Shown: positions 3,940-13,444 of the stretch, one piece after another
Layout of the letters: each line of letters opens with the position of its first letter
How positions within the stretch are numbered: position 1 is the stretch's first letter
Source of the DNA: Dehalococcoidia bacterium
GTDB taxonomy: Bacteria; Chloroflexota; Dehalococcoidia; Lucifugimonadales; Australimonadaceae
NCBI GenBank assembly: GCA_965116305.1
Contig: OZ220673.1
Span: forward strand, 469,784 to 533,783
Length of the DNA stretch: 64,000 nt
Direction: 5' to 3'
The notes under the pieces: generated by a model
Told to the model about the DNA's origin: nothing
The model's database searches: none
What the model saw: only the letters and a program-made list of their open reading frames with translations
Program-made: the position numbers and the translations under genes

Positions 3940-4026
3940 TGGTGGAGGGAGCAGGATTCGAACCTGCGTAGCCCTGAGGGCGTCAGATTTACAGTCTGAT
4001 GGATTTAGCCGCTCTCCCATCCCTCC
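3940..4026 (-). tRNA. tRNA-Tyr (anticodon GTA), long variable arm, CCA encoded
   Basis: Reverse complement is GGAGGGATGGGAGAGCGGCTAAATCCATCAGACTGTAAATCTGACGCCCTCAGGGCTACGCAGGTTCGAATCCTGCTCCCTCCACCA. Acceptor GGAGGGA/TCCCTCC, anticodon loop CTGTAAA, class II variable arm. Confidence 0.92.
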
Positions 4027-4108
4027 ACGGAGGCTGTGCGCCTGTCCGGTGAACGTATCCTAACACTCTCCCCTGTCTGTAGGAGAGGCTCGCTCCCCCG
4101 GTGAGACT

Positions 4109-4183
4109 TGGAGCCCGAGGAGGGAGTCGAACCCACAACCTGCCGATTACAAATCGGCTGCGCTGCCGTTGCGCCACTCGGGC
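4109..4183 (-). tRNA. tRNA-Thr (anticodon TGT), CCA encoded
   Basis: Reverse complement is GCCCGAGTGGCGCAACGGCAGCGCAGCCGATTTGTAATCGGCAGGTTGTGGGTTCGACTCCCTCCTCGGGCTCCA. Acceptor GCCCGAG/CTCGGGC is perfect and the anticodon loop is TTTGTAA. There is one T:T mismatch in the T-stem. Confidence 0.85.
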
Positions 4184-4204
4184 CGGGACGGCATCCGCCT
4201 CAAC

Positions 4205-4231
4205 CAAAAAAGACGGCCCGCAGGCCCGTCC
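4205..4231 (-). terminator. Intrinsic terminator downstream of hsdR (minus strand)
   Basis: The minus strand reads GACGGGCC-TGC-GGGCCGTC (7 bp with one mismatch) followed by TTTTTTGG. It lies between the end of the R-M operon and the tRNA genes. Confidence 0.6.
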
Positions 4232-4330
4232 AATCGCAGATTATCGTACACCCGCGCAGGCGAGTCAAGCGTCACGCTTGCCCTCCGCACAGCAGTCGTG
4301 GGCGTGACCCGCGACGTGGGGCGCAGCCCC

Positions 4331-4438
4331 CGTCATTCCAGCGAAAGCTGGAATCCAGCGTGCCCGACGGGGCACATGGGCCGGGGCGTGGGGTGTCTTC
4401 TCCTTCTCCCCGGGGGAGATGGCTAGGCTGAGGGTGAA
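4331..4438. repeat. Intergenic repeat cluster (family A hairpin plus family B hairpin)
   Basis: CGTCATTCCAGCGAAAGCTGGAATCC at 4331-4358 and TCCTTCTCCCCGGGGGAGATGG..GCTGAGGGTGAA at 4403-4438. The latter overlaps the hsdR stop. Confidence 0.8.
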
Positions 4439-7400
4439 CCGGCGGGGGGCTGGCCACGGAGGGCAGCCCCGATGTAGGTCATCGCGAAACTCATCTCCGT
4501 TACCCACCGCCGGAACGACTCGTTGTCGCTGAACTGCTTGAACAGCTCCGTGTGGTCGTAGAGCAGTTCATTCATGGCGCGCTCCAGCGCCTTGTCGTGC
4601 TCGATCCTCGCGTTCTGCTTGTCGGAATTGGCCATTGCGTTCTTGTACGCCTGGTCCTCGGCTACCTTGGCCGGCAGCTCTTCGATTATGACCTTCCCGA
4701 TCTTGTCCTGGTCCTTCCACTCGATGTTGCCGAACCGGTTGTTGAAGTCCTTGAGGATGTTGGAGAGCCGGTCCATCTCCGGTTCGGCCTTCTGTCCACC
4801 ACCGCCGGTGTCTATCGGCGGGATCTCCGCATCCTCGTCCGCAAGCTGGATGGCCTGCACCGCCTGCTTTTCCACGCGGTAGCTGTCCATGTCGATGGTT
4901 TCGAGGATGCCCTTCGAGAAGTCGTCCTCGATCGGCGCAGGGAGCTTGGGAACGAGGAACGTCAGGAAGATGGACAGTTTCTCCCACTCGGCGTAGGCAT
5001 AAGGCAGGATGGCCCCCAGGAAATCGTAGGACCGGAGAAACGCCTTCGCCTTCCCCTTGAAGTCCACCTGTCCGTCCTCGTCCAACTGCTCGCGGTACAC
5101 CGCGACGCACGCGTCCAGTATCGGGTCGAGTTTGTCGCGGTCAGCCCCTCCGAGATACAGCTCGACCAACTTGTCCACCTGTGCTGGGCTGTAGACCTGG
5201 TAGCCGTCGAGGGTTGCCTTCAGGTCGTGCAGCCTGTTCGGGTCCGTCTCCTCCGACAGGATGGTGGTGCGGTAGTAGTCGGCGAACGCGTTCTGGATCG
5301 TGTCGGCGTCGTTGGCGAAGTCCAGCACGAAGGTATCGTGCTTCTTGGGGTGGGCGCGGTTGAGGCGCGACAGCGTCTGCACCGCCTTCACGCCGGACAG
5401 CACCTTGTCCACATACATCGTATGGAGCAGCGGCTCGTCGTACCCCGTCTGGAACTTGTCTGCGCACACGAGGAAGCGATAGGGCTCTTCTTGTATCTTC
5501 TCCTCGATCAGGTTGGACGGGAAGCCGTTGAGGGACGCTTCGGTGACCTTTGTCCCTTCGTACTCATGCTCGCCGGAGAAGGCGACGATGGCCCGGTAAG
5601 GGATCTTCCACTCCGTGAGGTAGTCCCGGATGGCGTAGAAGTACGTGATGGCCCGATTGACGCTGCCGGTGACCACCATCGCCCGCGCCAGTCCGCCTAT
5701 CTTCCGTTGCCCCGCGGCCTGCTCGTTGAAGTTGTCCACCATCATCTCCGCCTTGAGTCGGATGGCGTGATCGTGCTCCTCCACGTAGCGGCGCAGCTTC
5801 TTGCTCGCCCGGTTGGTGTCGAACTCCGGGTCTCCTTCCACTGTCTTCACCAGCCGGTAGTAGCTGTTCGCCGTCGTGTAGTGCGCAAGCACGTCGAGGA
5901 TGAACCCCTCTTGGATCGCCTGCTTCATCGTGTAGGAGTGGAAGGGCACGTGCCTCGTCTTGCCGCCCTCGGGAACGAGCGCTCCGAAGATCTCCAGCGT
6001 CTTGTTCTTCGGTGTGGCAGTGAAGGCGAAGTAGCTGGCGTTGGTCAGCAGCTTTCTGCTCTCCATGATCTGGTTGATCTTGTCCTCGGTGGTCTCCTCC
6101 TCCTCAGCGTCAACCTCTCCAAGGACCCTCCCTACAGCCGCTGAGGTCTTGCCGCCTTGGCTGGAGTGCGCCTCGTCGATGATGAGGGCGAACGTGCGCC
6201 CCTGGTGCTCGCTGCCGATGGCGTCTACGATGAACGGGAACTTCTGAACGGTGGTGATAACGATACGCTTGCCTGCCTGGAGCAGCGTCCGCAGGTGCGC
6301 GGAGGTCTCGGCATGGCCCACGGTGGAGCCAACCTGGGCAAACTGTTTAATCGTGTCGCGTATCTGCCTGTCGAGCACCCTCCGGTCTGTAATGACGATG
6401 ACGGAATCGAAGATCGTTTTGTCGTCATGCTTCAGACCGATTAGTTGGTAGGCTAGCCACGCGATCGAGTTGGACTTCCCGCTCCCCGCCGAGTGCTGGA
6501 TCAGGTACCGGGGTCCGGCGCCCCTCTCGGATGCATCGGCGAGCAGCTCGCGCACCACGTCCAACTGGTGGTAACGCGGCCATATCTGCTCTCGCTTCCT
6601 GCGGCCCGTCTTCTCGTCCTTGGACTCCAGGATCTGCGCGTAGTTCTCGATGATGTCAGTCAGCCCGTCGCGCGTCAGTACCTGCTTCCACAGGTAGTCG
6701 GTTCTCAGGCCGTTGGGGTTCGGCGGGTTGCCCGCGCCCCCGTCGGTCCCCCCCTTGTTGAAGGGCAGGAACCACGACGACTTGCCAGTGAGGTGCGTGC
6801 AGAACTTCACCTCCTGGTCGTCGACGGCGAAGTGGGCGAGGCAGCGGCCCAGCTCGAAGAGCCGCTCTCTGGGATTGCGGTCTCGCTTGTACTGCTCGAC
6901 GGCGTCCTCCACCGTCTGCTTCGTCAGGCTGTTCTTCAACTCGAAAGTGGCAACAGGCAGGCCGTTGACGAACAGGCACACGTCCAGGGCAAGCTGCGGG
7001 TTGTCGTTGCTGTACCGGAGTTGCCGCGTCACGCTGAACCGGTTCTGCCGGTACAGCGCCTCCGCATTCTGGTTCCCCGGCGACGGCGTGCCGTACATCA
7101 GCTCTATCTGGTAGGGCCCGTGTTTGACGCCCTTCCGCAGCACGTCGATGGTCCCCCGTTTGGAGACCTCGCTCTGCAACCGTGCCAGGAACTTGCGCCG
7201 TGTGGGGCTCTCCTTCCGGAGGTCCAGCGACTCTGCGACGACCGGCTGCGTGGCTTCGAGGAACGCAGCGAGCTTGGCGAGGTCGACGCAGTACTCACGC
7301 TCGTAGTCGTGCGGGTCGCCGCATACCCAGCCGAACCCATAGGCGGCCGGCCGCTCTTCCAATGCGCCGTCCGGGGGCGTGTCGCACGGGGCGCCCGTCA

Positions 7401-7644
7401 ACGCCTCGCAGATGAGGCGCTCAAGCCCCTTCTCGCTGGTGTCGGTGACCGCGCCGGCTGCACGTCCCACGTGCTTTTCCCCGGGACGGTAGAACGCCCC
7501 CCGCGTCACGTTTGACCAATTCAGAACTTCGGGGGCGTCTGTGGTGTCGATCTGGTCGTCGGGCAGCCTCTTCAGCGCCGATATCTGCTCCCGCTGTCTC
7601 GGCGTCAGCTCAGGCATATCCTTCCTCGTAAGCTCTTCTCTCAT
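4423..7644 (-). CDS. hsdR: Type I restriction enzyme R subunit (HsdR), with a BrnA/DUF4415-like N-terminal segment in the same reading frame
   Basis: 1073-aa ORF. SF2 helicase motifs are present: QHSAGSGKSNSIAW (Walker A) and LIIDEAHSSQGG (DEAH box), along with the typical HsdR architecture. Residues 10-57 (MPELTPRQREQISALKRLPDDQIDTTDAPEVLNWSNVTRGAFYRP) look like the first half of a BrnA antitoxin. Alternative starts are ATG 7617 (SD GAGGAAGGA) and GTG 7470 (HsdR-only). Confidence 0.9.
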   Translation of the reverse strand: MREELTRKDMPELTPRQREQISALKRLPDDQIDTTDAPEVLNWSNVTRGAFYRPGEKHVGRAAGAVTDTSEKGLERLICEALTGAPCDTPPDGALEERPAAYGFGWVCGDPHDYEREYCVDLAKLAAFLEATQPVVAESLDLRKESPTRRKFLARLQSEVSKRGTIDVLRKGVKHGPYQIELMYGTPSPGNQNAEALYRQNRFSVTRQLRYSNDNPQLALDVCLFVNGLPVATFELKNSLTKQTVEDAVEQYKRDRNPRERLFELGRCLAHFAVDDQEVKFCTHLTGKSSWFLPFNKGGTDGGAGNPPNPNGLRTDYLWKQVLTRDGLTDIIENYAQILESKDEKTGRRKREQIWPRYHQLDVVRELLADASERGAGPRYLIQHSAGSGKSNSIAWLAYQLIGLKHDDKTIFDSVIVITDRRVLDRQIRDTIKQFAQVGSTVGHAETSAHLRTLLQAGKRIVITTVQKFPFIVDAIGSEHQGRTFALIIDEAHSSQGGKTSAAVGRVLGEVDAEEEETTEDKINQIMESRKLLTNASYFAFTATPKNKTLEIFGALVPEGGKTRHVPFHSYTMKQAIQEGFILDVLAHYTTANSYYRLVKTVEGDPEFDTNRASKKLRRYVEEHDHAIRLKAEMMVDNFNEQAAGQRKIGGLARAMVVTGSVNRAITYFYAIRDYLTEWKIPYRAIVAFSGEHEYEGTKVTEASLNGFPSNLIEEKIQEEPYRFLVCADKFQTGYDEPLLHTMYVDKVLSGVKAVQTLSRLNRAHPKKHDTFVLDFANDADTIQNAFADYYRTTILSEETDPNRLHDLKATLDGYQVYSPAQVDKLVELYLGGADRDKLDPILDACVAVYREQLDEDGQVDFKGKAKAFLRSYDFLGAILPYAYAEWEKLSIFLTFLVPKLPAPIEDDFSKGILETIDMDSYRVEKQAVQAIQLADEDAEIPPIDTGGGGQKAEPEMDRLSNILKDFNNRFGNIEWKDQDKIGKVIIEELPAKVAEDQAYKNAMANSDKQNARIEHDKALERAMNELLYDHTELFKQFSDNESFRRWVTEMSFAMTYIGAALRGQPPAGSPSA

Positions 7645-7885
7645 TCGGCGTCGCTCGGCGGGCGCTGATGATGCGTCCAGCGTCCGGCTCGTCAGGCCAG
7701 GTGTGAACGACCAGGACGAGGAGCCCTTCGATCATCCCAATCGTACGCCATCGCTGCTCGTATGGGTACGGATCGTCGTGTGTCGCTGCGAGCAGATCAT
7801 CGAACACGAGTATCGCGGTCTCGAACTCTATGCCGTGGTCCCGGAGGTTCGCTTCATTCTTCGCTTGGTCCCACTCCCAGATCAA
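7610..7885 (-). CDS. brnT: BrnT-family (DUF497) toxin, putative ribonuclease
   Basis: 91-aa ORF with a TTG start. IWEWDQAKNEANLRDHGIEFETAILVFDD...RWRTIGMIEGLLVLVVHTW...GRIISARRATPNERRAYEEG matches the BrnT pattern closely. Confidence 0.85.
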   Translation of the reverse strand: MIWEWDQAKNEANLRDHGIEFETAILVFDDLLAATHDDPYPYEQRWRTIGMIEGLLVLVVHTWPDEPDAGRIISARRATPNERRAYEEGYA

Positions 7886-9338
7886 TTGCCTGGCCTACCT
7901 CTTCCGGCTCACCCACGTCGTAGGAGCCATCCTCCCTATTGTCCGGCACCCAGTCATCTTCGTCTATCGGCTCTTCTGTCTCCTCCTCTTCCTCCGGGAG
8001 CAGCGCCGCCGCCTCGCGTACGTCCACCTTGCCCGTCACCACGTCGGCGACGAGCCGGGTGCGGTACTCCTCGACCAACTCGATCTGACGGCGAACCCGG
8101 GCGATAGCCTTGTCAATCGGTGCTGTAGTTTCTCCCACGTACCGCAGAATCGATTGGCGTTCTTCAAGCGGAGGAAATGGAACCTTCATGTTGCGTAGAA
8201 TTCCTAATGTCAGTTGATTGATAGTCGACGTAAAGAATGCTCCTGATTGGTACTCAAAGAACTCCGAATTAAATACTTGGTGCAGATAGTCGTTATTCAC
8301 ACCTCTGAATACTGTCATGAAAGCGCCAAAGGTCGTCCCCGCAGAATCTGCGCTGATGCGGGCGTTCTTCCCAATCAATGTTCGGCTTCCACTTCGAGTG
8401 CAGATAAGTATATCTCCATCTCTAGTAATCAATTTGTCCGGTACGGTACTACTCACATAAACGTTGTCGCCGTACACCAACTGTCCCCCCAGTATGTTGG
8501 ATGCACGTAGAACCAGGATTCCTGCGTCCTCGTCCACCACGTCTTGGGGATCGTAGGTCAATCCAATCAGTGCATCGCCCAGATTCCTCAGCCGCCGCAC
8601 TTCCCAGTGCTCCGGCACGTCCCCGAGCCACTCGACGCCGGAGGGCTTGAGGCGGGCGTTAGAGTCGAGGCCACGGGTGACGGCCTCGTTGACGATGGCC
8701 TGCTTCTCCTCCTCCAGCAGCGTGATGAGTCTCCGCTTAGTGCCGACGTACCGGCGGATGCGCTGGTCCACATAGTCCAAGTAGCGCACGATGGTCCGCT
8801 GCTCAGGGATAGGGGGAAGAGCAATCTGAACGGATTTGATGCCCACGTGAGTAAGGCCATACCGTGTCACTCCATTCGCCCTTACGTGGAACTGGTATGC
8901 CACAGCCTTGCTCTGCAATGCCAGGGCCAGATAAGCACCCTCTGTCTCAGCCGACGGCCGTAGCAAGGCTAAGTGGTAGCCAGAGAGAAGGTCATCGGCT
9001 GACTCTGCTACCAGACAAGGAACGCCGATGTCGTTCCAAGCCTCGGAGTCCTTGGTGATGAGCACATCGCCCCGCTCTAATCGAAATCTCTCAATCTCGT
9101 CAAGCGAGGCCGTCGCTGGCATAAAGGGCATAGCCGGTGTGATGCGGTCGTGTTTGTAGACATCGACATAGTTGCACAGACGAATAGGTATCTCCTCCTC
9201 TCGCGTGTGCTTGTCTACATTGCTGACGCGCATGTCGGCGACAGTCCTCAGCCGACGCACCTCCCAATGCTCCGGCATGTCGCCAAGCCACGGGATGCTG
9301 GAGGCCTTGTAGGCAGGATAGGAGGGGAGAGGGTTCAT
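7854..9338 (-). CDS. hsdS: Type I R-M specificity subunit (HsdS) with an acidic C-terminal tail
   Basis: 494-aa ORF. It has the duplicated TRD/conserved-region layout: LGDMPEHWEVRRLR and LGDVPEHWEVRRLR, two coiled-coil regions (IPEQRTIVRYLDYVDQRIRR and LEERQSILRYVGETTAPIDKAIARVRRQIELVEEYR). The tail is LPEEEEETEEPIDEDDW... Confidence 0.92.
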   Translation of the reverse strand: MNPLPSYPAYKASSIPWLGDMPEHWEVRRLRTVADMRVSNVDKHTREEEIPIRLCNYVDVYKHDRITPAMPFMPATASLDEIERFRLERGDVLITKDSEAWNDIGVPCLVAESADDLLSGYHLALLRPSAETEGAYLALALQSKAVAYQFHVRANGVTRYGLTHVGIKSVQIALPPIPEQRTIVRYLDYVDQRIRRYVGTKRRLITLLEEEKQAIVNEAVTRGLDSNARLKPSGVEWLGDVPEHWEVRRLRNLGDALIGLTYDPQDVVDEDAGILVLRASNILGGQLVYGDNVYVSSTVPDKLITRDGDILICTRSGSRTLIGKNARISADSAGTTFGAFMTVFRGVNNDYLHQVFNSEFFEYQSGAFFTSTINQLTLGILRNMKVPFPPLEERQSILRYVGETTAPIDKAIARVRRQIELVEEYRTRLVADVVTGKVDVREAAALLPEEEEETEEPIDEDDWVPDNREDGSYDVGEPEEVGQAIDLGVGPSEE

Positions 9339-10159
9339 TCTGCAAATTCACGCTGTATTCGTTCCACTATTTTGTTGTGCCATTCGCCATACTTGAACAG
9401 CAGGTTGTTTGACAGCCAAGCTTTTTCGGTTATGGCGTTCAGCGTCCATGCCAATGCTGAAACATCTGGACCGACAAAGAAGGCGTAATACTGCCCCACA
9501 TCAGGTTGGTTTGCATCCGGCTGTCCGTCCGGATTAAGTACAGTCACACCAGAAACAGTGCGTATAATCAAATACTGTTGGAGCACATGAACTATATTTG
9601 GTTGTCGTGCCAGGGGTACTTCGGGATGTTCATTGTAGAAATCTGTAATGTGGTCGCACACGGTATTTGCGTCGATCCCGTCATAGGCGAAGACGATTTT
9701 GTAAGGTGTATCTTGCCAGCTGTCTTCACTGATCTTCAAGAAAGGCGGCACAATCCCTCGTTGGTCAGGCATAGTAGGAACGGAAGCACAGTTGTTTAAC
9801 GCATCTATGAGAGTGTTCTTATCCAGGCGTGACTTTATTTCTGCTACTGCAACAGTACCTTCCAGTGGTGCGATGTATCGATTTCCGCGAGGCATTATGA
9901 ATCTGGGCGTGCTGCCATTGGTTGCTATAATGTCAACTTGGGTTGATGAATTACCTTTCATGTCGAAAACGTATCCTCCAAGGAACACATCACACATCTT
10001 GGGTAGGTGACGCTCTAGGAACGTTCGATACACTTCTTCCCGTTCCGTGCCTACTCCTGTTGGGTTCGTAAGCAAGCCGGCTTGCCTCGCTTGGCTACGC
10101 AGTTCGTCTGCAATCGAGATGTAATGTTGCTTGAGGTGATCAAAGACGTCTGGTGTCAT
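9335..10159 (-). CDS. Hypothetical protein with a PD-(D/E)xK-like nuclease motif (from memory it resembles the DUF6602 family); passenger gene between hsdM and hsdS
   Basis: 274 aa counted from ATG 10159 (the ORF-track ORF extends to 10315 but overlaps hsdM). Motifs are GTEREEVYRTFLERHLP, STQVDIIATNG and GTVAVAEIKSRL, i.e. E ... D ... E-x-K. There are ATGA start/stop overlaps at both ends. The gene is markedly AT-richer than its flanks. Confidence 0.6.
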   Translation of the reverse strand: MTPDVFDHLKQHYISIADELRSQARQAGLLTNPTGVGTEREEVYRTFLERHLPKMCDVFLGGYVFDMKGNSSTQVDIIATNGSTPRFIMPRGNRYIAPLEGTVAVAEIKSRLDKNTLIDALNNCASVPTMPDQRGIVPPFLKISEDSWQDTPYKIVFAYDGIDANTVCDHITDFYNEHPEVPLARQPNIVHVLQQYLIIRTVSGVTVLNPDGQPDANQPDVGQYYAFFVGPDVSALAWTLNAITEKAWLSNNLLFKYGEWHNKIVERIQREFAE

Positions 10160-12282
10160 AGAGAAACTATCTCCGCCAGCAACCCTTCGGTTTCCTGCTC
10201 TAAAGCCAGGATATCGGCCCGTATCTCGTCGAGTGCCCGCAGCGGCTGCGGCTTGTAGAAGTGACGCGTGAAGCTGATCTCGTAGCCGACCTTGACCTCC
10301 GACGGTACATACCATGCGTCCGGCGCGTAGGGCAGTACCTCCCGCCGCAGGAACCCTTCGATGCAGCCCTCCTCCAGCAGCGGCACCTGCTCGGTGTCGC
10401 GTAGTTCCGGGTCGGGCTCGTACTCCACTACGGTGCTCTGGCCGTCCACGTCAGTTGCGATCAGTCCACGGATTGGGTCGGGTTCAACCACACTCCGCTT
10501 GTGGGTCTTCTTGATGACAGGTGCAGCGGCCACTTCGCGAGATGCCAAAGCCATCTGCAATAGGTTCTTCCGCTTGACCGTCAATTTGACGCCATGCGCA
10601 GAAGCATCCGCCACAACGACTTCCATGAATCGGTTGAAGTCTGCGTGAGGTCCGTCGCCCAGCACTGTTGCCACCCGGTCGATGACGTTGGCGAGCGGCT
10701 CTTCGTTCGCGTCTCGGCAAGCGTCGCGGAAGCTTTGGCGGCGCTCCGGCGACAACTCCACGGTGAGCCGCAGCGGCCGTTCCACGGTGACCTTCCAGTA
10801 ACCGAATGCCTCGTTGAGGAATATCTTCGACTGCTCGGTTTCGTTGAACGCGAAGAACGTGTTGCAGATGCGTCGGATATCCTCGTCCGACAGTTCGCAG
10901 TTCTTGCTGCCGAGGTTCTTGCGGAGGGGGCGGCGCCACTGGGTGGCGTCGATGAGCTGCACCATTCCCTTGCGGTGCGCCGTCTTGCGGTTGCTCAGCA
11001 CCCAGATATACGTGGCGATGCCGGTGTTATAGAACATGTTCAGCGGCAGGGCGACGATCGCCTCCAGCCAGTCGTTCTCGATGATCCAGCGGCGGATGTT
11101 GCTCTCGCCCTGCCCCGCGTCGCCGGTGAACAGCGAACTGCCGTTGTGCACTTCGGCGATGCGGCTGCCTATCGGAGTCTGTTCGCTCGGGGACTTCATC
11201 TTGCTCAACATGTTGGCCAGGAACATCATCTGGCCGTCGCTGGAGCGGGTGATGAGGGAGTAGTCCGGGTCGCCGCCGTGCTCGACGACGAAGCGCGGGT
11301 CTGTGATGCCGCTCTTGCCGCCCATGTCCTCCAGGTCGCTCTTCCAGCTCTTGCCGTAGGGCGGATTGGACAGCATGAAGTCGAATTCCTGGGCGGGGAA
11401 GGCATCCTTGGCGAGGGTGGAGCCGAACCGCATGTTGTCAGCCTCTGCGCCCTCGCCCTTCAGAATGAGGTCGGCCTTGCTGATGGCGTACGTCTCCCCG
11501 TTCACTTCTTGGCCGAACAGGTGGATGGAGACGTCCTTGCCCTGCTCGGCGGCCAGTTCCATGAGCGTGCCCTCGGCAACGGTCAGCATGCCGCCGGTGC
11601 CGCAGGCGCCGTCGTAGACGAGGTAGGTGCCGGACCTGATCTCGTCTGCCACGGGCAGGAACACGAGGCGCGCCATGAGTTGCACCACGTCTCTGGGAGT
11701 GAAGTGCTCCCCGGCCTCCTCGTTGTTCTCCTCGTTGAACCGCCTGATCAGCTCCTCGAAGACCGTGCCCATGCCGTGGTTGTCCAGCCCCTCGAGCCGC
11801 ACGGAGCCGTCGGCGTTCAGGACGGGGCGCGGGCTGAGGTTGATGGACCTGTCCGTGAACTTCTCGATGAGGAAGCCAAGCCGCCCCGTGTCCGCGAGCC
11901 TGGGGATCTGGTTGCGGAACTCGAACTTGTCCAGCACCTCTTGGATATTTGGTGAGAAGCCGTCGAGGTACTCCTCGAAGTCTGCCTTCAACTGCTGCAC
12001 ATTAGTGCGCGAGGTGAGATCGCCGAGCAGAACGCGTGACGTGTTATAGAAAGACTCGCCGGAGGCCTGGCGCAACGGGCCATCTTGGTTTGCTATACCG
12101 GCGGCGTCCAGATGCTTCTTCGTGGCACGCACCGCTTCCTTTGTCGGTTCCAGGACGGCATCGAGGCGGCGGATGACCGTCATAGGCAGGATCACGTCGC
12201 GGTACTTGCCCCGCACGTAGACATCGCGCAGCACGTCGTCCGCGATGCCCCAGATGAAGCTGCTGATGTTCAGTGCGCTCAC
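10156..12282 (-). CDS. hsdM: Type I R-M DNA methyltransferase subunit (HsdM)
   Basis: Motifs VYDGACGTGGML (SAM binding) and LSNPPYGKSWK (N6-adenine MTase motif IV). The likely start is GTG 12282, with GGAGGA 8 nt upstream, giving VSALNISSFIWGIADDVLRD. The ORF-track ORF runs to 12402 through a repeat. Confidence 0.92.
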   Translation of the reverse strand: MSALNISSFIWGIADDVLRDVYVRGKYRDVILPMTVIRRLDAVLEPTKEAVRATKKHLDAAGIANQDGPLRQASGESFYNTSRVLLGDLTSRTNVQQLKADFEEYLDGFSPNIQEVLDKFEFRNQIPRLADTGRLGFLIEKFTDRSINLSPRPVLNADGSVRLEGLDNHGMGTVFEELIRRFNEENNEEAGEHFTPRDVVQLMARLVFLPVADEIRSGTYLVYDGACGTGGMLTVAEGTLMELAAEQGKDVSIHLFGQEVNGETYAISKADLILKGEGAEADNMRFGSTLAKDAFPAQEFDFMLSNPPYGKSWKSDLEDMGGKSGITDPRFVVEHGGDPDYSLITRSSDGQMMFLANMLSKMKSPSEQTPIGSRIAEVHNGSSLFTGDAGQGESNIRRWIIENDWLEAIVALPLNMFYNTGIATYIWVLSNRKTAHRKGMVQLIDATQWRRPLRKNLGSKNCELSDEDIRRICNTFFAFNETEQSKIFLNEAFGYWKVTVERPLRLTVELSPERRQSFRDACRDANEEPLANVIDRVATVLGDGPHADFNRFMEVVVADASAHGVKLTVKRKNLLQMALASREVAAAPVIKKTHKRSVVEPDPIRGLIATDVDGQSTVVEYEPDPELRDTEQVPLLEEGCIEGFLRREVLPYAPDAWYVPSEVKVGYEISFTRHFYKPQPLRALDEIRADILALEQETEGLLAEIVSL

Positions 12283-12300
12283 GCTACTCGTCCTCCGGCG

Positions 12301-12420
12301 CCTCACCTTACAAGTGGAGAGGACCAGAGGCAACGTGCCCATATCCTCACCTCTCCCATTGGGAGAGAGCCTGCCGTGAGCTTGTCGAACAGGTCGCCGC
12401 ACAGCAGCGGGTGAGGGTTA
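12301..12420. repeat. Intergenic repeat cluster (family B)
   Basis: CCTCACCTTACAAGTGGAGAGG, CCTCACCTCTCCCATTGGGAGAGAG and GCGGGTGAGGGT. Confidence 0.75.
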
Positions 12421-12556
12421 TGCCCCAACGTCAGATTTGTGACATCCGCCCGTTGCGATGACGAACCGCCCCTCCGTACGCTGTTATCGACGGCCCAACG
12501 CCACCGGCGGCATCGCCGGGGCGCAGGCCGAATCCGTGGAGGAGGCATGTCACCAA

Positions 12557-12958
12557 ATGTCACCAAATGTCACCATCAGAAAAGAGGCCGCACTCTCCCC
12601 TCGACAGTCCGCAGCGCTGCCCTACATCGTGTCCGAACCTACCTTGACGCGGGGCGCTCAGGCCGCTCACATAACCAAACGCACCCTCATGCGCTGGATG
12701 AACGAGCCCGCCTTTCGCGCGGAGCTGGAGCGCGTCCGCAGGAACATCGCGGATCTCGCTTACACGGAGTTGGAGGGACTCACGTTCAAGGGCGTCATCC
12801 GGATAGCGCAACTGATGGACAGCGACAACGAGGGCATCGCGCACCGCGCATCGAAGACCGCGCTCTCCATGTCCCAGTCGTTCCGCGAGCAGCGCCAGCT
12901 CCACCAGCAGCTCGAAACGCTGGAGAACGCCATCACCATCATGAGGCAGCAGCGATGA
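12557..12958 (+). CDS. Small HTH-type protein, phage/terminase-small-subunit-like
   Basis: SPRQSAALPYIVSEPTLTRGAQAAHITKRTLMRWMNEPAFRAELERVRR is a typical phage-type HTH N-terminus. ATG 12557 lies 11 nt after GGAGG (12541-12545). The ORF could also start at ATG 12458. Confidence 0.55.
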   Translation: MSPNVTIRKEAALSPRQSAALPYIVSEPTLTRGAQAAHITKRTLMRWMNEPAFRAELERVRRNIADLAYTELEGLTFKGVIRIAQLMDSDNEGIAHRASKTALSMSQSFREQRQLHQQLETLENAITIMRQQR

Positions 12959-13338
12959 GGGCCAGGGTGAGGGCGCTCGAACGCTATCTCGGTTGCCTCT
13001 CGGCGCAGGCCAAACTCGCACCCATCGCGGAGCGCTACGTTGAGGCGTGGATAGACGCGATGGAGGGCGGCTGGCCGCTACCCGACCTCACCTATCTCTT
13101 CCAGGCGTCGGCAGCCGTACACGTTCCCATCCTCAACCCTGGTCCCATCACCAGCTACCTCCAGCATTGCGCGAGGAGAAAGGAGATCCCGGAGGAGGAA
13201 CGCATCGTGCTGGCCATCGCCCACGCCTACGCGGAGGGCAACCCGTTCGAGAACATGGAGAAGACGTGCCGATGTCCTGCCCGGCGTCCGCTCGTCGGGC
13301 GAGGGCGGTCGAGGCCCAACCCCTTCCACGGACCATGA
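12955..13338 (+). CDS. Hypothetical protein, translationally coupled to the preceding HTH gene
   Basis: MRARVRALERYLGCLSAQAKLAPIAERYVEAWIDAMEGG... There is an ATGA overlap with the upstream stop at 12955-12958. I recognise no domain. The 3' end runs toward a repeat cluster. Confidence 0.4.
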   Translation: MRARVRALERYLGCLSAQAKLAPIAERYVEAWIDAMEGGWPLPDLTYLFQASAAVHVPILNPGPITSYLQHCARRKEIPEEERIVLAIAHAYAEGNPFENMEKTCRCPARRPLVGRGRSRPNPFHGP

Positions 13339-13348
13339 TGGCAAACTC

Positions 13349-13444
13349 GTCATGCCGGCGAACGCTGGCATCCAGCGCGCGCAGCGCCCATATCTCACCT
13401 CTCCCCCTGGGAGAGGTCGCCGCGGAGCGGCGGGTGAGGGTGAG
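13349..13444. repeat. Intergenic repeat cluster (A-variant plus B)
   Basis: GTCATGCCGGCGAACGCTGGCATCCAG and CTCACCTCTCCCCCTGGGAGAGGTCGCCGCGGAGCGGCGGGTGAGGGTGAG. Confidence 0.8.

What the first reader, a model, noticed from the sequence alone, without database searches (positions are those of the whole stretch)
4423..12282. Type I R-M operon carrying two non-R-M passenger genes, all five ORFs translationally coupled
Seen in the sequence: five same-strand ORFs run in the order hsdM (12282-10156), a 274-aa nuclease-fold ORF (10159-9335), hsdS (9338-7854), brnT (7885-7610), and a brnA-like N-terminus in frame with hsdR (7644 or 7617 to 4423).

The junctions are ATGA start/stop overlaps at 10156-10159 and 9335-9338, a 32-nt hsdS/brnT overlap, and an 8-nt (ATG 7617) or 35-nt (ATG 7644) overlap after brnT. 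A hairpin plus T6 terminator closes the unit at 4205-4231.

Established knowledge: type I hsd loci can host latent suicide nucleases kept silent by the R-M complex. The PrrC anticodon nuclease inside the EcoprrI locus is the classic case.

Inference: this looks like a layered restriction plus abortive-infection unit with two different effectors, a BrnT RNase and a PD-(D/E)xK-like protein. I do not recognise this combination as a described system.
Basis: partly seen in the sequence, partly recalled or inferred. Interest (0 to 1): 0.8.

Follow-up and report, generated by a model that had tools for sequence, protein, structure and literature searches.

The report
Restriction enzyme carrying a toxin's antidote
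A type I restriction-modification operon carries two extra defence genes, and the antidote peptide for one of them (the BrnT RNase toxin) has become the front end of the restriction subunit HsdR, a recurring arrangement I found in no paper I could search.

Summary
Five intact, overlapping minus-strand ORFs encode HsdM, a DUF6602 nuclease, HsdS, BrnT and a 1073-aa HsdR.

The main result concerns HsdR. Its first ~65 residues are the N-terminal half of a BrnA antitoxin and align with the toxin-bound antitoxin fragment in PDB 7vd7. BrnA's C-terminal DNA-binding half is missing, and the usual HsdR start methionine is gone. BrnT directly followed by this fusion recurs in five other loci. Both parts are under purifying selection (dN/dS 0.07-0.26). 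The 64-kb window holds no other BrnA. I infer that HsdR itself is the BrnT antitoxin; what releases BrnT is unknown.

The DUF6602 protein has a NucC fold and an intact catalytic motif, but lacks two NucC residues that bind the cyclic-AMP signal. It occupies the same hsdM|hsdS position in its two closest relatives and is standalone in other defence islands, so it looks like independent cargo.

In relatives, both positions hold other defence or toxin-antitoxin cargo (DarTG, DUF433/DUF5615, TIR, Ymh). Defence genes embedded in type I operons are already described. The antitoxin-HsdR fusion appeared in no paper I could search. Verdict: a new variant of a known kind; function untested.

The parts
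10156..12282 (-). hsdM, type I methyltransferase subunit (GTG start at 12282; in-frame alternatives at 12342 and 12402)
   Evidence: PF02384 E 2e-51, PF12161 E 3e-21, PADLOC MTase_I E 3e-248. 72-77% identical to the hsdM of L007, L016, L018 and L001.
9335..10159 (-). Cargo 1: 274-aa DUF6602 nuclease with a NucC-like PD-(D/E)xK fold; ATGA overlaps on both sides
   Evidence: PF20247 E 7e-21; PADLOC PD_DExK E 1e-23 and NucC E 6e-13. D76, E107 and K109 are invariant in 31 homologues. AF2 model pLDDT 92; the top 14 Foldseek PDB hits are all NucC.
7854..9338 (-). hsdS, specificity subunit, with a ~50-aa acidic C-terminal tail that runs into brnT
   Evidence: Two PF01420 stretches; PADLOC Specificity_I models end near aa 444 of 494. 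The tail is partly conserved in L011 and L018.
7610..7885 (-). Cargo 2: brnT, a RelE-fold RNase toxin (TTG start)
   Evidence: PF04365 positions 1-77 of 77, E 1.5e-23. PDB 7vd7_A 'toxin' E 5e-18 and Brucella BrnT 3u97 E 9e-5. dN/dS 0.07-0.22 against orthologues in L016, L013 and L001.
7450..7644 (-). brnA' segment: the first ~65 codons of the hsdR ORF, homologous to the toxin-binding N-terminal half of BrnA; no RHH half
   Evidence: 602 HMMER hits, mostly small proteins. The four full-length ones scanned pass the Pfam PF14384 BrnA_antitoxin cut-off. Residues 16-54 align with PDB 7vd7_B 'antitoxin' residues 4-44, E 6e-4. Full BrnA proteins match the window only at 7641-7468. dN/dS 0.14-0.26.
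4423..7644 (-). hsdR, restriction subunit, translated as one 1073-aa (ATG 7644) or 1064-aa (ATG 7617) BrnA(N)::HsdR fusion
   Evidence: HSDR_N, SWI2_SNF2, ResIII and T1R_D3; TIGR00348 E 2e-60. Unfused homologues start MTTDTSEKGLERLIC, which is window aa 66-80 (AVTDTSEKGLERLIC).
4205..4231 (-). Hairpin plus T6, a possible intrinsic terminator closing the unit, just upstream of tRNA-Thr (4183-4109)
   Evidence: Sequence; fold. Not called by the scan. Function not tested.

Best explanation
This is a composite defence operon built on a type I R-M system with two cargo positions.

Position 1, between hsdM and hsdS, holds a self-contained NucC-fold DNase of family DUF6602.

Position 2, between hsdS and hsdR, holds the RNase toxin BrnT. 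Its antitoxin has been cut down to the toxin-binding N-terminal peptide and fused to the N-terminus of HsdR. HsdR therefore serves as both the restriction subunit and the BrnT antitoxin.

Shown by sequence and comparison:
- the fusion itself;
- loss of the RHH half of BrnA;
- loss of the normal HsdR start methionine;
- recurrence of the fusion with BrnT directly upstream;
- purifying selection on both parts;
- no other BrnA in the window.

Inferred:
- BrnT is made from the hsd operon, set by the overlapping reading frames, and is held inactive one-to-one on the HsdR tail.
- With the DNA-binding half gone, the pair no longer regulates itself and depends on hsd expression.
- BrnT is freed when the supply or integrity of HsdR fails. 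Candidate causes are phage shut-off of host expression, proteolysis of HsdR (for example ClpXP-type restriction alleviation), or loss or silencing of the locus.
- Free BrnT cleaves RNA and stops growth, giving abortive infection and/or retention of hsdR.

The DUF6602 nuclease most likely acts on its own. Its trigger is unknown, and it is probably not the NucC ligand cAAA.
For: Fusion anatomy:
- One continuous ORF runs from 7644 to 4423.
- Unfused homologues begin MTTDTSEKG. In fusions that Met is S, T, V or I.

Identity of the extension:
- The four full-length relatives examined continue after FYRP with ITLRLDADIIAWFKA...YQT.IN.ALR and pass Pfam's BrnA_antitoxin cut-off.
- A plasmid tblastn hit is annotated 'BrnA antitoxin family protein'.
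- The extension aligns with the 44-residue antitoxin chain of the toxin-antitoxin complex 7vd7. That chain ends at ...FFRP, exactly where the window extension ends its homology. Window BrnT matches the partner chain 7vd7_A at E 5e-18.

Recurrence:
- BrnT directly upstream of, and overlapping, the fusion is found in the window and in L001, L006, L011, L013 and L016.
- L016 is an intact 1057-aa fusion on a 3.8-Mb contig, with the order hsdM-DUF6602-hsdS-DarT-DarG-brnT-fusion.
- About 22 distinct proteins (90% identity clusters) span both the extension and the HsdR start.

Selection:
- dN/dS is 0.14-0.26 for the extension and 0.07-0.22 for BrnT, with pS 0.34-0.76.
- BrnT keeps 4 of the 5 residues needed for RNase activity in Brucella BrnT (alignment; residues from PMC5086665).
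- There is no second BrnA and no RHH remnant in the 64 kb.

Cargo positions:
- hsdS|hsdR holds DarT-DarG in L016, DUF433+DUF5615 in L007 and L018, and M78+DUF4411 in L012.
- hsdM|hsdS holds DUF6602 in the window, L007 and L016, TIR in L011 and Ymh in L018.
- This matches published DarTG2 embedded between hsdS and hsdR and described as a 'recombination hotspot' (PMC12255303).
Against: - There is no experimental or structural evidence that BrnT binds the HsdR-borne peptide.
- The AF2 model of the fusion N-terminus is poor (pLDDT 48). It says only that the extension is not confidently docked on HsdR.
- HsdR is a large protein and may not be labile, unlike classical antitoxins, so the release step is unclear. 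A nonsense mutation downstream of the peptide would leave the antitoxin intact.
- One fusion subtype (L012) lacks BrnT and has lost the DWS and FYRP motifs.
- BrnT position 7 is Q rather than the E needed in Brucella BrnT, although 7vd7_A also lacks E there.
- Many related loci come from noisy long-read metagenome assemblies with frameshifts.
- The census is small: seven contexts. The protein search lists only short products, so the true frequency is unknown.
Confidence: 0.6

Rival explanations
1. Selfish stabiliser only. The brnT-brnA' pair is a toxin-antitoxin cassette that landed in the hsdS|hsdR recombination hotspot and lost its RHH half in a deletion that joined it to hsdR. It is kept because losing or silencing the hsdR 5' end kills the cell. 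It therefore stabilises the island or the R subunit, with no role in sensing phage or in restriction.
For: - Toxin-antitoxin cassettes of unrelated families occupy the same position in relatives, and the site is published as a hotspot (PMC12255303).
- Scars of cassette exchange are present: hsdS and hsdM C-terminal remnants, and a brnA'-hsdR 5' fragment left upstream of a DUF433 cassette in L018.
- E. coli type I loci are known to sit beside ordinary brnAT (PMC12707154).
- Purifying selection fits addiction as well as defence.
Against: - It shares the core claim of the best explanation (HsdR-borne peptide neutralises BrnT) and differs only in the benefit.
- Defence and addiction do not exclude each other.
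- An ordinary two-gene brnTA would stabilise the island equally well, so the repeated retention of the fusion across diverged loci needs a further reason.
Confidence: 0.22
2. PrrC-style double guard. Both passengers, including the DUF6602 nuclease, are latent suicide effectors kept silent by physical association with the R-M complex and released together when it is inhibited.
For: - DUF6602 sits between hsdM and hsdS with ATGA overlaps in the window, and is in the same position in its two closest relatives, L007 (72%) and L016 (66%).
- More distant copies still carry an hsdM C-terminal remnant upstream: immediately upstream in L008, and about 3.5 kb upstream in L002/L003.
- NucC-type nucleases are non-specific DNases that need tight control (bioRxiv 10.1101/694703).
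Against: - Homologues at 49-60% identity are standalone: beside a TIR gene, beside type III CRISPR-Cas, and among IS elements.
- A DUF6602 protein (Damona) is reported to defend as a single gene (bioRxiv 10.1101/2024.07.02.601686).
- No fusion or shared domain links DUF6602 to any Hsd subunit.
- L001, L011 and L013 have the BrnT fusion without DUF6602, so the two passengers are not an obligate pair.
Confidence: 0.1
3. Decayed junk. The BrnA-like extension is a translated remnant with no function, BrnT is inactive, and HsdR really starts at an internal codon such as GTG 7470 (HVGR).
For: - An in-frame GTG lies 9 codons before TDTSEKG.
- Pfam and NCBIfam give no hit to the extension alone.
- Subtype B fusions have lost key motifs and, in L012, BrnT itself.
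Against: - dN/dS is far below 1 for both the extension and BrnT, with synonymous sites near saturation.
- BrnT is full length in five other loci.
- The HVGR valine is L in L013, and the whole linker differs in L006, so no internal start is conserved.
- The canonical Met is lost in the fusions.
Confidence: 0.05

Closest known systems
PrrC anticodon nuclease inside the EcoprrI type I R-M locus
   Same: An RNA-cleaving suicide effector is encoded inside a type I hsd operon and kept latent by the R-M proteins, so the R-M system acts as the antitoxin.
   Different: PrrC is an ABC-ATPase-like anticodon nuclease, held non-covalently by the complex and triggered by T4 Stp. Here the effector is a RelE-fold BrnT. 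The silencing element is a recognisable antitoxin peptide fused to HsdR. No trigger is known.
BrnT/BrnA type II toxin-antitoxin system (Brucella abortus; PDB 3u97, 7vd7)
   Same: A BrnT toxin of the same Pfam family, toxin-first gene order with overlap, and an antitoxin N-terminal segment that aligns with the toxin-bound fragment in 7vd7.
   Different: The antitoxin's C-terminal RHH dimerisation and DNA-binding half is absent and replaced by a 1007-aa HsdR. Self-repression of a brnTA promoter is therefore not expected.
[quoted passage not shown] 2024)
   Same: Toxin-antitoxin or defence cargo inserted in the same orientation inside a type I operon, at the hsdS|hsdR junction. L016 even carries DarT-DarG there.
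   Different: Those cargos are complete, separable systems with no fusion to an Hsd subunit.
NucC (cAAA-activated DNase of CBASS and type III CRISPR) and Damona (single-gene DUF6602 defence)
   Same: The 274-aa protein has the NucC fold over its full length and the ID-x30-E-x-K catalytic spacing. It belongs to the Pfam family DUF6602 reported for Damona.
   Different: It has only 14-17% identity to NucC. NucC's cAAA-binding R53 and Y81 align with M55 and T84. No cyclase is nearby. Similarity to the Damona protein itself could not be checked.

Membership tests
Type I restriction-modification system | HsdM with an N6-adenine methyltransferase domain plus the HsdM N-terminal domain | tested here: met
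   PF02384 E 2e-51, PF12161 E 3e-21, PADLOC MTase_I E 3e-248
Type I restriction-modification system | HsdS with two target-recognition domains | tested here: met
   Two PF01420 stretches; PADLOC Specificity_I models cover aa 5-444
Type I restriction-modification system | HsdR with an N-terminal nuclease domain and an SF2 translocase | tested here: met
   HSDR_N, SWI2_SNF2, ResIII and T1R_D3-like; TIGR00348 E 2e-60, below its trusted cut-off of 284 bits
Type I restriction-modification system | Methylation and ATP-dependent restriction activity | not testable with these tools
   Needs methylome data or a restriction assay
BrnT/BrnA type II toxin-antitoxin system | BrnT toxin domain (PF04365), full length | tested here: met
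   Profile positions 1-77 of 77, E 1.5e-23; PDB 7vd7_A and 3u97
BrnT/BrnA type II toxin-antitoxin system | Residues needed for RNase activity in Brucella BrnT (D6, E7, K9, R41, E78; PMC5086665) | tested here: inconclusive
   Window has D6, Q7, K9, R44, E83, so 4 of 5. Position 7 also varies in 7vd7_A and in the orthologues
BrnT/BrnA type II toxin-antitoxin system | Toxin gene first, antitoxin gene immediately downstream and overlapping | tested here: met
   brnT stop 7612-7610 overlaps ATG 7617 or 7644; same in L001, L006, L011, L013, L016
BrnT/BrnA type II toxin-antitoxin system | Antitoxin segment that binds the toxin | tested here: met
   Met by homology only. Extension aa 16-54 aligns with 7vd7_B aa 4-44, E 6e-4, and is 50-55% identical to full BrnA proteins. 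Binding itself was not tested
BrnT/BrnA type II toxin-antitoxin system | Antitoxin C-terminal RHH DNA-binding domain (core of PF14384) giving self-repression | tested here: not met
   No Pfam or NCBIfam hit to the extension. Homology to BrnA stops at FYRP, after which HsdR follows
NucC (cyclic-trinucleotide-activated nuclease) | NucC fold with the ID-x30-EAK active site | tested here: met
   Top 14 Foldseek hits are NucC, TM 0.55-0.71. D76 and E107-x-K109 have the same spacing and are invariant
NucC (cyclic-trinucleotide-activated nuclease) | cAAA pocket residues R53, Y81, T226 and gate-loop residues H136, Y141 (bioRxiv 10.1101/694703) | tested here: not met
   In the profile alignment R53 aligns with M55 and Y81 with T84. 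T226, H136 and Y141 lie outside the alignable region. Caveat: about 15% identity
NucC (cyclic-trinucleotide-activated nuclease) | Encoded with a CD-NTase or a type III CRISPR Cas10 cyclase | tested here: not met
   The flanks are hsdM and hsdS, and the wider island has no cyclase. Only the 49% homologue in L009 lies beside type III cas genes. The rest of the genome was not seen
Damona (single-gene DUF6602 defence) | DUF6602 domain | tested here: met
   PF20247 E 7e-21, above the cut-off; the domain is reported for Damona in bioRxiv 10.1101/2024.07.02.601686
Damona (single-gene DUF6602 defence) | Sequence similarity to Damona itself, and anti-phage activity as a single gene | not tested
PrrC-type R-M guard | ABC-ATPase-like N-domain plus an anticodon nuclease domain | tested here: not met
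   No such domain in any of the five proteins
PrrC-type R-M guard | Effector silenced by physical association with the type I R-M proteins and released when they are inhibited | not testable with these tools
   For BrnT the fusion makes association likely; release is inferred only

The most novel reading that the evidence does not exclude
A restriction subunit has become an antitoxin. The BrnA toxin-binding peptide on HsdR makes BrnT a built-in guard of the restriction enzyme, so that anything that depletes, degrades or unfolds HsdR turns failed restriction directly into RNase-mediated growth arrest. Candidate causes are phage shut-off, anti-restriction factors, or ClpXP-type restriction alleviation during attack on unmodified DNA. 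The MNT::HsdS fusion next to a HEPN-like gene in L001 hints that fusing antitoxins to Hsd subunits is a more general way of wiring abortive infection to type I R-M.
Probability: 0.4. Interest if true: 0.78.

Novelty: new variant of a known kind. Interest (0 to 1): 0.6.

Why it matters
It is well established that defence and toxin-antitoxin genes nest inside type I R-M operons. How the nested effector 'knows' the state of the R-M enzyme is understood only for PrrC.

Here the link is written into the protein. The toxin-neutralising peptide is part of HsdR. That gives a simple, directly testable model of restriction coupled to abortive infection or addiction. The tests are toxicity rescue by HsdR 1-65, pull-downs, and phage challenge with or without anti-restriction proteins.

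It may also help explain how cells retain the R subunit, which can be lost without harm.

The two variable cargo positions in this HsdR family are also a practical place to look for new defence genes.

Tried and rejected
- Pfam and NCBIfam scans of the 65-91-aa N-terminus alone found nothing. The Pfam BrnA model is mostly the missing C-terminal half. Homology was established by an exhaustive HMMER search and PDB 7vd7.
- Scans of genome contigs and metagenome contigs for DUF6602 relatives gave only 1 and 3 loci. The viral-contig scan found no DUF6602, and only two short BrnA-like matches that I did not examine. No neighbourhood statistics were therefore possible, and contexts rest on 11 successful look-ups (10 distinct genomic contexts; one returned a 1.4-kb fragment as well).
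- AF2 on the first 300 aa of the fusion gave a poor model (pLDDT 48) and was not used as evidence.
- An exact look-up of the window HsdR and BrnT found neither in the collection. The source organism was not identified. Named relatives are Chloroflexota/Caldilineaceae MAGs.
- Direct repeats flanking the island were rejected as attachment sites. Both repeat families are dispersed through the window, 5 copies each.
- The promoter scan found only one site in the scanned region (4000-13200), fewer than expected by chance.
- P0243 and P0260, with many 'stretches' matching the extension, are not real relatives. P0260 is a translated tandem DNA repeat.
- The Heaton 2012 BrnTA paper is not held, so residue data come from a review.
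- No paper was found on 7vd7.
- tblastn against 72,556 plasmids found unfused HsdR and separate BrnA, but no fusion.
Full report
**1. The observation**

Each has a strong family assignment.
- HsdM: PF02384 plus PF12161, and PADLOC MTase_I at E 3e-248.
- The 274-aa ORF: PF20247 (DUF6602) at E 7e-21, plus PADLOC PD_DExK and NucC.
- HsdS: two Methylase_S stretches.
- BrnT: PF04365 over its full length, E 1.5e-23.
- HsdR: HSDR_N, SWI2_SNF2, ResIII and T1R_D3.

The junctions are as described. ATGA overlaps sit at 10159-10156 and 9338-9335. hsdS and brnT overlap by 32 nt. The brnT stop overlaps ATG 7617 by 8 nt, or ATG 7644 by 35 nt.

Some details need refining.
- hsdM at 12282 starts with GTG behind GGAGGA.
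- brnT must start at TTG 7885.
- ATG 7617 has the better ribosome-binding motif.
- The hairpin plus T6 at 4231-4205 exists, but the simple scan did not call it.

The unit sits between tRNA-Thr (4183-4109) and housekeeping genes. G+C drops to 0.50-0.56 over hsdS and DUF6602, against 0.62-0.68 around. That fits an acquired island.

**2. The HsdR N-terminus**

A search with the first 300 aa of HsdR listed 120 hits, and 119 of them cover only query residues from about 66 onward. The five I inspected begin MTTDTSEKGLERLIC or have only a short unrelated leader. One hit, P0004, covers the whole query.

The window protein reads ...FYRPGEKHVGRAAGAVTDTSEKGLERLIC, so 65 residues precede the normal start and the start methionine itself is replaced.

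Pfam and NCBIfam see nothing in those 65 residues alone. An exhaustive HMMER search of 1.84 billion representative proteins found 602 relatives. Most are 55-170 aa.

The full-length relatives continue after FYRP(V/I)K with QITLRLDADIIAWFKA..GRGYQTDINAALREHV. Four of them (P0255, P0257, P0259, P0312) pass Pfam's BrnA_antitoxin cut-off.

Full BrnA proteins match the window only at 7641-7468. There is no RHH part and no second copy anywhere in the 64 kb.

The extension aligns with chain B ('antitoxin', 44 aa, ending ...FFRP) of PDB 7vd7. Chain A of that entry is the closest solved relative of the window BrnT (E 5e-18).

So the extension is the toxin-binding half of BrnA, and the DNA-binding half has been replaced by HsdR.

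**3. The fusion is real, conserved and linked to BrnT**

The same in-frame fusion, with a BrnT ORF directly upstream and overlapping it, occurs in five other loci.
- L001: a 255-kb contig.
- L006.
- L011.
- L013.
- L016: a 3.8-Mb contig with an intact 1057-aa fusion.

Extension identity to the window is 47-77%.

Two further loci differ.
- L012 has a diverged fusion (subtype B: DWS becomes EGS or GGA, and FYRP becomes FHKS) without BrnT.
- L018 is a scar. It keeps the extension plus 43 aa of HsdR and only the last residues of BrnT. A DUF433 cassette and an intact unfused hsdR follow.

About 22 distinct proteins span both the extension and the HsdR start. Because that tool lists only short products, this is a lower bound.

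Selection is purifying.
- dN/dS is 0.14-0.26 for the extension outside the overlap.
- dN/dS is 0.07-0.22 for BrnT.
- Synonymous sites are near saturation.

In fusions the former start Met is S, T, V or I, and no internal start codon is conserved. BrnT keeps D6, K9, R and E of the five residues needed for RNase activity in Brucella BrnT (PMC5086665).

No fusion exists among 72,556 plasmids, where HsdR and BrnA occur only separately.

**4. The DUF6602 passenger**

Thirty-one homologues share invariant D76, E107 and K109. The AF2 model is confident (pLDDT 92). Its top 14 PDB matches are all NucC, over the full length, with TM 0.55-0.71 and 14-17% identity.

The catalytic spacing matches NucC's ID-x30-EAK motif. 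However, the cAAA-binding residues R53 and Y81 of NucC align with M55 and T84 (bioRxiv 10.1101/694703). It is therefore a NucC-fold nuclease but probably not a cAAA sensor.

Its genomic contexts vary with distance.
- The two closest relatives, L007 (72%) and L016 (66%), sit in the same hsdM|hsdS position.
- L008 (60%) is standalone beside a TIR gene, yet keeps a 26-aa HsdM C-terminal remnant just upstream.
- L009 (49%) lies beside type III CRISPR-Cas.
- L017 (50%) lies among IS elements, with BrxC and TerB genes on the same stretch.

A DUF6602 protein, Damona, is reported as a single-gene defence. I read this gene as independent, mobile cargo.

**5. Two cargo positions**

In this HsdR family the hsdM|hsdS position holds:
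- DUF6602 (window, L007, L016);
- a 187-aa ORF plus TIR (L011);
- Ymh (L018);
- an unknown 197-aa ORF (L001).

The hsdS|hsdR position holds:
- brnT with the fusion;
- DarT-DarG as well (L016);
- DUF433+DUF5615 (L007, L018);
- M78 peptidase plus DUF4411 (L012).

Remnants of the hsdM and hsdS 3' ends flank several cargos. This suggests exchange by recombination in the conserved gene ends.

It agrees with the literature:
- PrrC;
- DarTG2 between hsdS and hsdR, described as a 'recombination hotspot' (PMC12255303);
- TgvAB (PMC11411939);
- the 'guilt-by-embedding' survey, which includes type I R-M (bioRxiv 10.1101/2024.01.29.577857);
- brnAT beside E. coli type I loci (PMC12707154).

**6. Mechanism**

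The anatomy described above is shown by sequence and comparison. The following steps are inferred.
- BrnT binds the HsdR-borne peptide and is inactive while HsdR is made and intact.
- Without the RHH half, the pair is governed by hsd expression and by the overlapping frames.
- A fall in HsdR supply or integrity frees BrnT, which cleaves RNA and arrests growth.

Candidate triggers, from established knowledge, are phage shut-off of host expression, ClpXP-dependent degradation of HsdR during restriction alleviation, and loss of the locus.

The main rival keeps the same binding but sees only addiction, that is, retention of hsdR or of the island.

**7. Novelty**

Searches for BrnT with type I restriction, HsdR with antitoxin and 'fused', DUF4415 and DUF6602 found no description of the fusion. 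A 2025 survey of RelE/ParE-superfamily toxins lists BrnT-BrnA fusions but nothing with HsdR.

The library covers open-access papers only, so a prior description cannot be excluded.

My verdict is a new variant of a known kind. It is of moderate to high interest, because it turns the PrrC idea into a domain-level hypothesis that can be tested.

Noticed in passing
L001:18346-20365 (minus strand): A second type I system on the same contig has a HEPN-like NTase_sub_bind gene (PF08780, E 5e-32). It is followed by an HsdS whose N-terminus is a minimal nucleotidyltransferase (Polbeta/NTP_transf_2, aa 12-92). MNT is the antitoxin of HEPN/MNT pairs, so this looks like a second kind of antitoxin fused to an Hsd subunit.
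   Followed up: partly
L008:8921-8998; L011:3904-3990; L018:4340-4513, 8421-8582 and 9213-9450; L002:2370-2498: Short remnants of the hsdM C-terminus (66-88% identical to the window) and of the hsdS C-terminus lie next to cargo genes. They look like scars of cassette exchange by recombination in the conserved gene ends.
   Followed up: partly
L012:7259-9384, and proteins P0397, P0399, P0401-P0403: A conserved subtype of the fusion has DWS replaced by EGS or GGA, FYRP replaced by FHKS, and a longer linker (ASERSKAMDELRGRR). In L012 it lacks BrnT and follows an M78 peptidase plus a DUF4411 gene. Its partner, if any, is unknown.
   Followed up: partly
window 12546-12575 and ORF 12458-12958 (+): Three tandem copies of ATGTCACCA(A) with a 10-nt period lie at the likely start (MSPNVT...) of a divergent 166-aa ORF upstream of hsdM. 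The ORF has no Pfam hit. The repeats could be an operator or regulator site for the island.
   Followed up: no
window 4331-4353, 44704, 46210, 48192, 63746; and 12346-12368, 13394-13416, 39213, 42968, 48322: Two families of dispersed REP-like palindromic repeats (TTCCAGCTTTCGCTGGAATGACG and CTCACCTCTCCC..GGGAGAGG), five copies each against 0 expected. Copies lie just outside both ends of the hsd unit, but they are genome-wide elements, not attachment sites.
   Followed up: partly
window 7500-10500: G+C falls to 0.50-0.56 over hsdS and the DUF6602 gene, against 0.60-0.68 in hsdM, hsdR and the flanks. These two genes may have a different, more recent origin.
   Followed up: no
window 4240-4268 (minus strand): A promoter-like site (TTGACT-17-GATAAT, 10 of 12 matches) lies between the hsdR stop and the hairpin that precedes tRNA-Thr. 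It was the only such site in the 9.2-kb stretch scanned (4000-13200), fewer than the 2.4 expected from shuffles, so it may be chance.
   Followed up: no
proteins P0312 and P0247: P0312 is a full BrnA fused to a Swt1-like HEPN domain (441 aa). P0247 has two tandem BrnA N-terminal segments in front of an HsdR start. The BrnA N-segment seems to be a reusable module.
   Followed up: no
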